A stretch of 64,000 nucleotides of DNA from Nitrosopumilaceae archaeon (GTDB lineage: Archaea; Thermoproteota; Nitrososphaeria; Nitrososphaerales; Nitrosopumilaceae): NCBI GenBank assembly GCA_965214835.1, contig CBDCCK010000002.1, positions 288,001-352,000 on the forward strand. The letters are read 5' to 3'. The notes beneath the pieces were generated by a model, which was not told the DNA's origin, did not search any database, and saw only the letters and a program-made list of their open reading frames with translations. Shown piece after piece: positions 23,617 to 25,116 of this stretch. Numbering within the stretch: position 1 is the first letter of the stretch; each line of letters begins with the position of its first letter. The translations under genes and the position numbers were made by a program.

Positions 23617-23755
23617 GTAAGAGTTTACCCCTACCCAGAGATACGGCGTGGCAGGCGTGATCATGCAGGCTCCGACCAGCAGTGTCGCCTGAGGGGTAAA
23701 CTCCCATATCAAATTATGCTGATTCCCTGCATGGGCCACTGCGAGTGTGCGTTTC

Positions 23756-24853
23756 TCAGTCAGACGCATTCACTAGACATTCCATCATTTTATACTTTCT
23801 CTGCGTGAGCTCCTTGTTCTGCGTGCGGTATTCCGTTTCGTTAGTCAGCATGTACCAGATCACCTTTGCAAGCGTTCTGGCCACTGCTACCTTGGCCTTT
23901 TGCTTTCCCCTGCGTCGGGCTATTCTGTCGTACCTTTCACCCATCCTGCTGTCGTGCTGTACCGCTACCGTGGCCGCGTTGACAATGGCGTATCGAAGCC
24001 ATGCAGAACCCGTCCTGGTTATTGGTCCGCCCCGTATGGTCTCGCCGCTGTTGCGGTGTGACGGTACCAGGCCCGCGTATGCTGCAAGCTTTTCTGCGGT
24101 GGGAAACCTTCGTATGTCCACTATTTCGGATATTATGGCAAGTGCGGTAACGTGGCTTATTCCCGGAACCGTCATCATGAGCCTGGTCCTGGGATCGTCC
24201 CTGCAGATGGCGGCAATCTTGCGCTCAAATCCTGTCGCCTGCTGCTGCAGCATCTCAATCCTGTCCAGTCCCATGCCTATCATCGTCCTGTCCATCTCCG
24301 ACATGTCATGGTCCCCGCAGTCCCTGCAAAGCTCGTGCATCCACTGGATTCCCTGTACGGTGAACCTGCCCTTGGTGGGCGGTATTGCCGCGTATTTTGC
24401 AAGTATGGCAGTTATCTTGTTCTTCTCGCCGGTGCCCATTCGTACCGCGTCGATCCTGGCCCTTGAAAGGAAGCGCAGATCCCTGTAGTATCTGTCGGGC
24501 ACGAACGACTCGTACACCATGTCCATCCTGAGCAGATTTGCCAGTACCTCCGAGTCTACTTTATCATCCTTTAGCTTTGCCTGCGCTATTGCCCGGGTCT
24601 TGGCAGGATACGCCAGCTGCGTGTCTATCTTGTTGTCCTCAAGCATGTCATGCGGCAGGATCCAGTAGTTTCCCGTCGCCTCACAGACTGCACGGATCTT
24701 GTGTTTTGCGTATTTCTTTTTGATCTGCCCAATAAATCCCCTTATTCCGTCGGCCGTGTTGGAAAACTCCGTCTGTTCCAGGGTCTTGGCAGCCCGGCCC
24801 TTGATGGCTGCCACGCACGTCTTTTTATGAACGTCTATTCCTATGTTGATCAT
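23756..24853 (-). CDS. IS110 DEDD recombinase/transposase
   Basis: 'IGIDVHK', 'CEATG', 'KDDKVDS', 'VPGI...TA..I.SEI.DIRRF..AEKLAAYAGLVP...SG', 'KAKVAVARTL'; GGAGGTGA SD before ATG 24853. Confidence 0.95.
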   Translation of the reverse strand: MINIGIDVHKKTCVAAIKGRAAKTLEQTEFSNTADGIRGFIGQIKKKYAKHKIRAVCEATGNYWILPHDMLEDNKIDTQLAYPAKTRAIAQAKLKDDKVDSEVLANLLRMDMVYESFVPDRYYRDLRFLSRARIDAVRMGTGEKNKITAILAKYAAIPPTKGRFTVQGIQWMHELCRDCGDHDMSEMDRTMIGMGLDRIEMLQQQATGFERKIAAICRDDPRTRLMMTVPGISHVTALAIISEIVDIRRFPTAEKLAAYAGLVPSHRNSGETIRGGPITRTGSAWLRYAIVNAATVAVQHDSRMGERYDRIARRRGKQKAKVAVARTLAKVIWYMLTNETEYRTQNKELTQRKYKMMECLVNASD

Positions 24854-24885
24854 TATATCACCTCCCTGCTGATCAAAGTGTGTGT

Positions 24886-25015
24886 GCCCAACTGTGCGGA
24901 AAACTCCCATTCGCCCTCGATGTGGCATTTCGTTGTCCGCCTACTCTGAGCCAGTCTCTTACGCGCCCTCATACGTGGCAAGTTTACTTCGGCTCTTGGG
25001 CCCAACATGGAATAT
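24886..25015 (-). ncRNA. Predicted IS110 bridge RNA (target- and donor-binding loops)
   Basis: Nested stems GCCCAA/TTGGGC, GAGCC/GGCTC, GCGGA/TCCGC; duplicated scaffold TGCCAC-N-GAGGGCG; guide segments match target and donor; 5' end estimated. Confidence 0.8.
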
Positions 25016-25116
25016 ATGGCATCCGCTACAGATAAGATTTGATATAACGTCTCTTACGGTGTCAGGGGAAGAATCAAAAATTCGTGACCAAGGCAAATAA
25101 AAAAAAGGTGTGAGCT

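What the first reader, a model, noticed from the sequence alone, without database searches (positions are those of the whole stretch)
23617..25057. Archaeal IS110 bridge recombinase inserted precisely into the terminal repeat of a MITE
Seen: an intact IS110 (23704-25053) is bounded by a repeated CTC core (23701-23703, 25051-25053), with no TSD. Removing it rejoins AGGGGTAAA-CTC-TTAC, the perfect complement of the MITE's left TIR GTAAGAGTTTACCCCT (23617-23632). The same ~88-bp MITE occurs without IS110 at 29907, 50088 and (partial) 38219, so the target is a dispersed repeat. Known: IS110 elements are RNA-guided; IS621 targets REP sequences and IS4321/IS5075 target Tn21-family TIRs. Inference: an archaeal IS110 uses a non-autonomous MITE as a multi-copy safe harbour, and by breaking the TIR it probably immobilises that MITE copy. 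I know of no description of this pairing in Thaumarchaeota, but could not search.
Basis: partly seen in the sequence, partly recalled or inferred. Interest (0 to 1): 0.92.

Follow-up and report, generated by a model that had tools for sequence, protein, structure and literature searches.

The report
RNA-guided insertion sequence inside a MITE end
An intact IS110-family mobile element in an archaeal genome carries a guide RNA whose target loop spells out the last 12 bases of another transposon's terminal repeat, and it sits exactly there inside a miniature copy of that transposon: a new archaeal example of a known habit of this family.

Summary
A 1350-bp IS110-family element (window 23704-25053, transposase on the minus strand) splits the right terminal inverted repeat (TIR) of a 91-bp MITE. 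There is a 3-nt CTC overlap and no duplication.

The MITE derives from an IS66-family transposon. The 12-mer GTAAGAGTTTAC at its tip occurs 45 times in the genome.

I found the element's bridge/seek RNA upstream of the transposase (24880-25004, minus). It has two internal-loop modules. On 32 distinct relatives, 95.6% of cells pair and 18 of 23 pairs show compensatory changes. The target-loop strands, GUAAACU and GUAAGAG(AC), match the two flanks exactly, and in relatives they change together with the flanks.

The far end (RE) of related copies lies at the same TIR position in 3 of 5 cases in this genome and 6 of 7 in a second genome that also carries the MITE. Congeners without the MITE carry relatives at single-copy sites.

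So the insertion is RNA-guided targeting of a transposon end. This resembles IS4321/IS5075, which target Tn21 repeats. The element mixes IS1111-like ends and guide order with an IS110-like upstream RNA. Immobilisation of the MITE and present activity are untested.

Verdict: a new member of a known kind, of moderate interest.

The parts
23617..23632 (+). Intact left TIR of the MITE (GTAAGAGTTTACCCCT). Its first 12 nt are a second, unoccupied perfect target.
23617..23703 (.). MITE, first 87 nt, up to the IS. It is an IS66-derived non-coding element of 91 bp when rejoined.
23701..23703 (.). CTC overlap at the RE junction. The family-conserved core is CT (23701-23702), which reads AG on the transposase strand.
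23704..25053 (-). IS110-family element, 1350 bp (equally 23703-25052).
23706..23714 (.). Subterminal inverted repeat at the RE (ATATCAAAT), 3 nt from the end if the IS is written 23703-25052.
   Evidence: read directly; compared
23756..24853 (-). Transposase/recombinase gene, 365 aa, starting MINIGIDVHK. D7, E58, D97, D100 and S269 are invariant among 4 relatives.
24857..24865 (-). GGAGGTGAT ribosome-binding motif, conserved before the start codon in relatives.
24880..25004 (-). Bridge/seek RNA core: a closing stem plus a target-binding module and a donor-binding module.
   Evidence: model R1, 137.9 bits
24981..24987 (-). S1, 5' strand of the target loop (GUAAACU). It is complementary to AGTTTAC on the transposase-sense strand of the RE-side flank.
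24954..24962 (-). S2, 3' strand of the target loop (GUAAGAGAC). It is identical to the LE-side flank GTAAG plus core AG plus the first two IS bases AC.
24931..24935 (-). D1, 5' strand of the donor loop (CAACG). It is complementary to LE bases 2-5 (CGTT).
24904..24910 (-). S3, 3' strand of the donor loop (AUGGGAG). It is identical to the last bases of the RE plus the core.
   Evidence: (D3)
25037..25045 (.). Subterminal inverted repeat at the LE, 7 nt from the end if the IS is written 23703-25052.
   Evidence: read directly
25051..25053 (.). CTC overlap at the LE junction.
25054..25057 (.). TTAC: the outer 4 nt of the MITE's right TIR, cut off from the rest by the IS.

Best explanation
The element is an intact IS110-family DEDD/serine recombinase element that integrated by RNA-guided site-specific recombination into the tip of an IS66-family TIR, here carried by a 91-bp MITE.

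Its 5' untranslated region encodes a bridge (seek) RNA with two internal-loop modules. In the target module, the 5' strand (GUAAACU) pairs with the transposase-sense strand of AG+TTTAC. The 3' strand (GUAAGAG, followed by AC) pairs with the opposite strand of GTAAG+AG. Together they specify GTAAGAGTTTAC, the first 12 nt of the TIR. In the donor module, CAACG pairs with the left-end start and AUGGGAG matches the right-end tip plus core. Crossover is at the shared AG/CT core, so nothing is duplicated.

What is shown: the anatomy, the conserved RNA structure, the co-variation of guides with flanks, and repeated use of the same TIR position in two genomes.

What is inferred: that the RNA is made and bound; that a circular intermediate exists; that the copy is active now; that the many TIR copies serve as harmless landing sites; and that separating the terminal GTAAG from the rest of the TIR by 1.35 kb stops IS66 transposase from moving this MITE.
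For: Family membership: Pfam DEDD_Tnp_IS110 and Transposase_20. NCBIfam NF033542 'IS110 family RNA-guided transposase' scores 243.9 bits against a cut-off of 140. Homology to the IS621 transposase, E 4e-14. D7, E58, D97, D100 and S269 are invariant in 4 relatives.

RNA structure: covariance model R1 matched 32 of the 50 sources searched, with 33 hits. On that alignment 95.6% of cells pair, against 80.3% in shuffles and 33-49% when partners are slid. 18 of 23 pairs have changes on both sides.

Guides in the window copy match both flanks fully.

Across relatives:
- S2 versus left flank: mean 4.73 of 6 matches (n = 26 of 32 rows), against 1.60 when guides and flanks are cross-paired.
- S1 versus right flank: 3.71 of 5 (n = 17 of 32), against 1.74.
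- D1 versus left-end start: 3.56 of 5 (n = 32), against 2.45.
- The 2-nt extension of S2 equals the first two IS bases in 30 of 32.

The sister lineage in the same genome has S1 GUAACCU and sits at AGGTTAC.

Target use: RE flanks lie in the TIR in 3 of 5 cases and 6 of 7 in genome G041.

Target abundance: GTAAGAGTTTAC occurs 45 times, with variants GTAT 20, GTAC 18 and GTAG 4.

The MITE is real: it has TIRs, 8-9-bp duplications in 20 of 53 short copies and 10 of 14 long copies, and its 1.6-kb parent encodes DDE_Tnp_IS66, E 4.1e-24.
Against: - There is no direct evidence of activity. Only this copy has an intact gene in the genome.
- The minimum-free-energy fold of the 200-nt leader is no better than shuffles (z 0.30), and Rfam has no match. 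The structure therefore rests on comparison, and the alignment was fitted to my model.
- The rows are kin, so the counts overstate independence.
- The fourth TIR base often mismatches the guide: in 4 of 9 comparable copies, and in L001.
- D1 pairs with only 4 of 5 bases here, and 3 of 5 in many relatives.
- 2 of 5 RE flanks in this genome and 1 of 7 in G041 are not in the MITE TIR.
- This MITE copy lacks a target-site duplication, so a later rearrangement between IS or MITE copies is not excluded.
Confidence: 0.85

Rival explanations
1. The recombinase protein recognises the TIR directly. The upstream region is only a leader whose similarity to the flanks is incidental.
For: The thermodynamic fold is not significant. 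There is no Rfam family. The right-end tip ATGGGAG and the first left-end bases are nearly invariant, so the donor side alone gives little co-variation.
Against: The guide segments change together with the flanks in relatives that have quite different targets. Five helices show compensatory changes. The sister lineage differs by one guide base that matches its own flank. The family is known to be RNA-guided (passages read).
Confidence: 0.04
2. The element is a dead relic. It was guided to the TIR long ago, and the present arrangement, which lacks a MITE duplication, also reflects later recombination between repeats. It is not a simple recent insertion.
For: - The window copy is the only one in the genome with an intact gene.
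- All other copies are broken or are fragments abutting other repeats.
- There is no duplication around this MITE.
Against: - The open frame is intact, with all catalytic residues.
- The guides match both flanks perfectly.
- The rejoined MITE has the modal length.
- 33 of 53 other short MITE copies also lack a clean duplication.
Confidence: 0.1
3. The MITE inserted next to or around the IS rather than the IS into the MITE. Alternatively, the two travel together as one composite unit.
For: MITE ends abut IS fragments at other loci, for example the joint 23703->24819 seen in 3 runs. Nested repeats are common in this genome.
Against: The TIR is interrupted 4-7 nt from its tip while both IS ends are complete. 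45 uninterrupted copies of the 12-mer exist. The same IS end meets MITE copies of different internal sequence and orientation in G041.
Confidence: 0.01

Closest known systems
[quoted passage not shown]
   Same: An IS110-family element inserts at one fixed position and orientation inside another transposon's TIR, without a duplication. It has subterminal inverted repeats with short asymmetric terminal extensions. (Title of Partridge & Hall 2003 seen in the reference list; family features read in passages.)
   Different: - The host here is an archaeon, and the target is an IS66-family TIR and its MITEs.
- The long non-coding region lies upstream of the gene, not downstream.
- The protein is only distantly related: BLASTP against IS4321 of R751 gives 47 bits, 23% identity over 145 aa.
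IS621 (IS110 group) bridge recombinase and its bridge RNA
   Same: The RNA lies upstream in the left end and has two internal-loop modules, each with two guide strands around a hairpin. There is a CT/AG core, a 2-nt extension on the 3' target guide that matches the donor, and a DEDD plus serine catalytic set.
   Different: - Guide order is reversed. Here the 5' strand of each loop pairs with the transposase-sense strand of the right side, and the 3' strand matches the left side. In IS621 the 5' guide pairs with the bottom strand of the left target.
- The core reads AG, not CT, on the RNA-sense strand.
- Subterminal inverted repeats are present.
- IS621 targets REP sequences (recalled).
IS1111-family seekRNA elements (ISEc11, ISKpn4/ISPst6 at attC sites, ISPa11 at REP)
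   Same: [quoted passage not shown] Targets are often dispersed repeats. Natural reprogramming occurs among close relatives (passages).
   Different: Their seekRNA lies downstream of the transposase. A few exceptions with an upstream non-coding region are reported, such as ISMtsp17. I did not compare sequences with those.

Membership tests
IS110 family sensu lato (RNA-guided DEDD/serine recombinase elements) | N-terminal DEDD (RuvC-like) domain and C-terminal Tnp domain with a catalytic serine | tested here: met
   PF01548 E 1.9e-25 and PF02371 E 9.9e-25. NF033542 243.9 bits against cut-off 140. D7, E58, D97, D100 and S269 invariant. S269 lies in the SG motif aligned to IS621.
IS110 family sensu lato (RNA-guided DEDD/serine recombinase elements) | No target-site duplication; a short core shared by donor and target | tested here: met
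   CTC overlap only. AG is conserved in S2 of 31 of 32 relatives and in S3 of 32 of 32.
IS110 family sensu lato (RNA-guided DEDD/serine recombinase elements) | Long non-coding region encoding an RNA with target- and donor-matching segments | tested here: met
   structure with 18 of 23 co-varying pairs; guides match the flanks.
IS110 family sensu lato (RNA-guided DEDD/serine recombinase elements) | Circular intermediate with abutted ends | not testable with these tools
   Only assembled contigs of public runs could be laid, and they cannot settle this.
IS1111 group | Subterminal inverted repeats (usually 11-13 bp) with terminal extensions of 7 nt (left) and 3 nt (right) | tested here: met
   Window: a 9-bp perfect repeat, ATATCAAAT, at 23706-23714 and 25037-25045, with extensions of 3 and 7 nt. 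11 bp in relative L033. The criterion was read.
IS1111 group | RNA segment complementary to the top strand lies 5' of the bottom-strand match | tested here: met
   S1 (complement of the sense strand) is 5' of S2 (identical to the sense strand). The criterion was read.
IS1111 group | Long non-coding region downstream of the transposase gene | tested here: not met
   200 nt upstream and 52 nt downstream.
IS1111 group | Transposase related over its full length to IS1111-type transposases | tested here: not met
   Against IS4321 (R751), only 145 aa align, at 23% identity and 47 bits. IS1111 itself was not compared.
IS110 group (IS621-like) | Upstream RNA; 5' guide of each loop matches the left side; no subterminal inverted repeats | tested here: not met
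   Upstream position is met. Guide order is reversed and subterminal repeats are present.
MITE | Short non-coding element with TIRs, target-site duplications, and an autonomous parent with the same ends | tested here: met
   Length 91 bp. TIR pairs: 53 short and 14 long. Duplications in 20 of 53 short and 10 of 14 long copies. Parent of 1.62-1.65 kb. This particular copy has no duplication.
IS66 family (parent of the MITE) | DDE_Tnp_IS66 transposase, 8-bp duplication, ends beginning GTAA | tested here: met
   PF03050 E 4.1e-24. 8-9-bp duplications and GTAnGAG ends. That GTAA ends and 8-bp duplications typify IS66 is recalled, not taken from a call.

The most novel reading that the evidence does not exclude
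These elements form a distinct architectural class of bridge-RNA transposons, found in archaea and in sediment and soil metagenomes. They combine an upstream two-loop RNA with IS1111-type ends and a guide order mirrored relative to IS621. In this host lineage the class has been naturally reprogrammed into a hyperparasite that lands in, and disables, the ends of IS66 transposons and their MITEs, and so shapes the repeat load of the genome.
Probability: 0.3. Interest if true: 0.65.

Novelty: new member of a known kind. Interest (0 to 1): 0.5.

Why it matters
It gives a fully worked natural example, in an archaeon, of bridge/seek-RNA programming. All four guide strands are read directly against both junctions. 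A one-base natural retargeting exists in the same genome, and about 30 relatives show the same rule.

It extends targeting of another transposon's terminal repeat from plasmid-borne Tn21 relatives to IS66 elements and MITEs in archaea.

It also offers compact 365-aa recombinases with a mixed IS110/IS1111 layout for people who compare or engineer bridge recombinases.

It does not reveal a new mechanism.

Tried and rejected
- Rfam scan of 23500-25300 at E up to 1: no match.
- Single-sequence folding of the 200-nt leader: z 0.30, uninformative.
- MAFFT alignment A2 misplaced the donor loop of L003 and L012. I therefore built the model from six gap-free sequences.
- My first regular expression for right ends found nothing, and a mis-sliced key followed. 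Both were corrected.
- Handshake-type pairing of the bases after AUGGGAG with the right flank holds 3 of 3 in the window. Across 17 relatives the mean is only 1.4 of 3, so I do not claim it.
- Tested whether TIR targeting is shared by congeners. The right flanks of L004 (G004) and of L012 and L003 (G003) are single-copy. The TIR 15-mer is not found in G003, G004 or G010. Targeting of the TIR is therefore lineage-specific.
- Public runs. No RNA holder is listed. Only assembled contigs could be laid. No contig joins the two outer flanks of this locus, and none shows the right-end/left-end circle junction. The two joints seen (23703->24819 with TTACCAT between; 25057->24801) are other loci. The left-end/flank junction 25030-25400 is present without differences in X1, X2 and X4, one of which may be the source sample.
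- L001's right end is missing.
- Placement in IS1111 versus IS110 by pairwise protein scores was indecisive. No tree was built because no reference set was at hand.
- Literature searches: 'IS110' + 'MITE' + 'archaea' + 'inverted repeat' returned 17 papers, 15 listed. 'IS110' + 'Thaumarchaeota' returned 6. 'IS1111' + 'terminal inverted repeats' + 'IS66' returned 3. I saw only listings and abstract starts, and none describes this pairing.
- Supplements of papers were not consulted.
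Full report
**What is there**

The + strand reads ...GCCTGAGGGGTAAACTC|CCATATCAAATTATGC... at 23703|23704 and ...TTTGATATAACGTCTC|TTACGGTGTCAGG... at 25053|25054. Between these points lie 1350 bp. They hold one long minus-strand frame with Pfam DEDD_Tnp_IS110 (E 1.9e-25) and Transposase_20 (E 9.9e-25). The frame matches NCBIfam NF033542, 'IS110 family RNA-guided transposase', at 243.9 bits against a cut-off of 140. 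It is a distant homologue of the IS621 transposase (E 4e-14).

The conserved start is MINIGIDVHK at 24853, preceded by GGAGGTGAT. D7, E58, D97, D100 and S269 are invariant among four relatives of 46-59% identity.

CTC occurs at both junctions. Taking the element out gives AGGGGTAAACTCTTAC, the exact complement of 23617-23632. The host is an archaeon: its rRNA operon matches the archaeal SSU and LSU models best.

**What the target is**

The rejoined 91-bp unit is one of many. BLAST finds about 75 matches in the 3.2-Mb genome. The TIR 15-mer occurs 172 times with up to 2 mismatches. Facing TIR pairs fall into classes of about 90 bp and of 1.5-1.65 kb.

Clean 8-9-bp duplications flank 20 of 53 short pairs and 10 of 14 long ones. 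The long copies encode a transposase of about 465 aa with DDE_Tnp_IS66 (E 4.1e-24). So the short unit is a genuine MITE of an IS66-family element.

The sequence hit by the IS is the tip of that family's TIR, present on autonomous copies and MITEs alike. GTAAGAGTTTAC occurs 45 times; the variants with T, C or G at the fourth base occur 20, 18 and 4 times.

**Other copies**

In this genome only the window copy has an intact gene. Two further full-length but broken copies share 90% identity, and many fragments exist.

- At the end next to the 3' end of the gene (RE), 3 of 5 copies abut ...GGGG(T/C)AAACTC of the MITE. The other two, the sister lineage B, abut GGGGGACGTAACCTC and GGGGGTAGGTGACCC. 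These are not in a recognisable MITE and have no other copies.
- At the other end (LE), 12 close copies are followed by TTAC (4), ATAC (7) or ATGC (1).
- A second genome, G041, holds the nearest relative (L001, 83% protein identity). It carries 151 copies of the TIR 15-mer with up to 1 mismatch, whereas congeners G003 and G004 and G010 have none.
- In G041, 6 of 7 RE ends abut GGGGTAAACT(C/T), in MITE copies of different inner sequence and orientation. 8 of 8 LE ends are followed by (G/A/T)TAC.
- In G003 and G004 the related elements (57-60% protein identity) sit at single-copy sites.

**The RNA**

The 200 nt between the LE and the start codon align with the same region of relatives from three congeneric or confamilial genomes and from metagenome contigs. 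From six gap-free sequences I wrote a structure:

- a closing stem;
- module 1: outer stem GAGCC/GGCUC, an 11-nt 5' strand, a hairpin, and a 12-nt 3' strand;
- module 2, built the same way: outer stem GCGGA/UCCGC.

The model matched 32 of 50 sources searched, with 33 hits, down to about 37% protein identity. It found nothing in the 18 more distant ones.

On the resulting alignment of 32 distinct rows, 95.6% of cells pair, against 80.3% in shuffles and 33-49% when partners are slid by 1-3 columns. 18 of 23 pairs show changes on both sides.

Caveats: that alignment is fitted to the model, the rows are kin, single-sequence folding is uninformative (z 0.30), and Rfam has no such family.

**The guides**

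All sequences below are in the transposase sense.

| Junction | Sequence |
|---|---|
| Target | GTAAG-AG-TTTACCCC |
| LE junction | GTAAG-AG-ACGTTATATC |
| RE junction | GATATGGG-AG-TTTACCCC |

- Module 1, 5' strand, holds GUAAACU (window 24981-24987), the complement of AGTTTAC.
- Module 1, 3' strand, holds GUAAGAGAC (24954-24962), identical to the LE junction.
- Module 2, 5' strand, holds CAACG (24931-24935), complementary to CGTT of the LE start.
- Module 2, 3' strand, holds AUGGGAG (24904-24910), identical to the RE tip plus core.

These segments change with the flanks in relatives.

- S2/left flank pairs include CCGGCAG (L012), GTAATAG (L004), TTGACAG (L033), TAGTCAG versus TATTGAG in two near-identical elements (L053, L052), and GGTTAAG (L042).
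- S1/right flank pairs include AATAG (L003), TGAAGT (L043), TATGG (L041) and CTTGATA (L045).

| Comparison | Observed mean | Rows used | Cross-paired control | Other counts |
|---|---|---|---|---|
| S2 versus left flank | 4.73 of 6 | 26 of 32 | 1.60 | at least 5 of 6 in 19 of 26, against 0.6% of controls |
| S1 versus right flank | 3.71 of 5 | 17 of 32 | 1.74 | full match in 8; three low scores (L005, L038, L004) come from a 1-nt register shift |
| D1 versus LE start | 3.56 of 5 | 32 | 2.45 | weak, because the LE start is conserved |

Rows missing from the first two counts lacked the flank on the contig. The two bases after the core in S2 equal the first two IS bases in 30 of 32 rows, including the AC-to-AT change in L040-L043.

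Lineage B in this genome has S1 GUAACCU and S2 GUAUGAG, and sits at GTAT-GAG-GTTAC. That is a one-base natural retargeting.

The fourth TIR base is often mismatched to S2: in 4 of 9 comparable copies, and in L001. Variant TIRs are therefore evidently tolerated.

**Comparison with known systems**

In IS621 the RNA also comes from the left end and each loop has two guides around a hairpin. There, however, the 5' guide pairs with the bottom strand of the left target and the 3' guide with the top strand of the right target (passages of PMC11208158). Here the order is the reverse. [quoted passage not shown]

The element also has the other IS1111 marks given there. It has subterminal inverted repeats: 9 bp here, 23706-23714 and 25037-25045, and 11 bp in L033. 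They are set 7 nt from the left end and 3 nt from the right end when the IS is written 23703-25052.

Against IS1111 membership, the long non-coding region is upstream. The same paper reports a few such exceptions. The protein is no closer to IS4321 (47 bits) than to IS621.

I therefore file the element under the IS110 family in the broad sense. I describe it as working like an IS1111-type element with a 5' RNA, and assign it to neither subgroup. The closest behavioural parallel is IS4321/IS5075, which target the TIRs of Tn21-family transposons; I saw only the title of that paper, in the reference list.

**What is not shown**

- Transcription of the RNA, the circular form and present activity are not shown. 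Public runs gave only assembled contigs and no RNA holder.
- This MITE copy has no duplication across the IS. Its rejoined length of 91 bp is the modal one, and 33 of 53 other short copies also lack a clean duplication. Still, a later exchange between repeats cannot be excluded.
- That the insertion immobilises the MITE follows only from the 1.35-kb separation of the terminal GTAAG from the rest of the TIR.
- That the TIRs serve as harmless landing sites is an inference from their number.

**Novelty and score**

Literature searches found no description of this pairing or of such elements in ammonia-oxidising archaea (listings only).

The mechanism and the habit of landing in dispersed repeats and transposon ends are known. 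What is new is the host domain, the IS66/MITE target, and the explicit RNA model with its mixed layout.

Verdict: a new member of a known kind, interest 0.5.

Noticed in passing
window 50088-50180: This MITE copy ends ...GGGGGTAAACTC and then runs straight into flank (CAGAAGC...). It lacks exactly the terminal TTAC that lies beyond the IS insertion point. The flanks still look like a degenerate duplication (ctagaagttt / CAGAAGcttt). It may be a footprint of an imprecise loss at the crossover site, or chance.
   Followed up: no
genome C2, e.g. 433877-435590 and 687665-687782 (outside the window): A second IS66-like family has TIR GTAATAGGTTAGCCCC, 1.7-1.8-kb copies and 118-bp MITEs, nearly all with perfect 8-bp duplications. 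It looks younger than the family hit by the IS.
   Followed up: partly
L003:1246-1337 and 1341-1468: In congener G003, a full element is inserted exactly after ...ACCGGCAG inside the 3' target-guide segment of another, truncated copy. Because that guide repeats the left target plus core, the RNA gene mimics the element's own target.
   Followed up: partly
genome C2, 12 LE ends against 5 RE ends: Fragments that keep the RNA-coding end outnumber those that keep the other end. In all 11 fragments examined, the inner boundary abuts other repeated DNA, with 11-119 genomic matches. Nested insertions in a repeat-rich genome probably explain this. In G041 the counts are 8 and 7.
   Followed up: partly
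genome C2 1917085-1917670, 1962636-1963221, 2918486-2918742, 1909552-1909941: A more distant lineage of the same element type (69-73% DNA identity) ends ...CGTCTA and has other flanks. One copy lies directly beside a complete MITE end. Some unrelated sequences share only the first 29 nt or so of the LE.
   Followed up: no
window 23703 / 24819 (joint in runs X1, X4, X7): Contigs of three public runs join a MITE end (…CTC + TTACCAT) to sequence matching the IS from 24819 onward. This is another locus, where a MITE abuts the inside of an IS copy.
   Followed up: no
window 23210-23707 (minus): A 165-aa open frame with no Pfam match runs from unique DNA into the MITE. It may be a gene whose 5' end was replaced by the MITE, or it may be spurious.
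   Followed up: no
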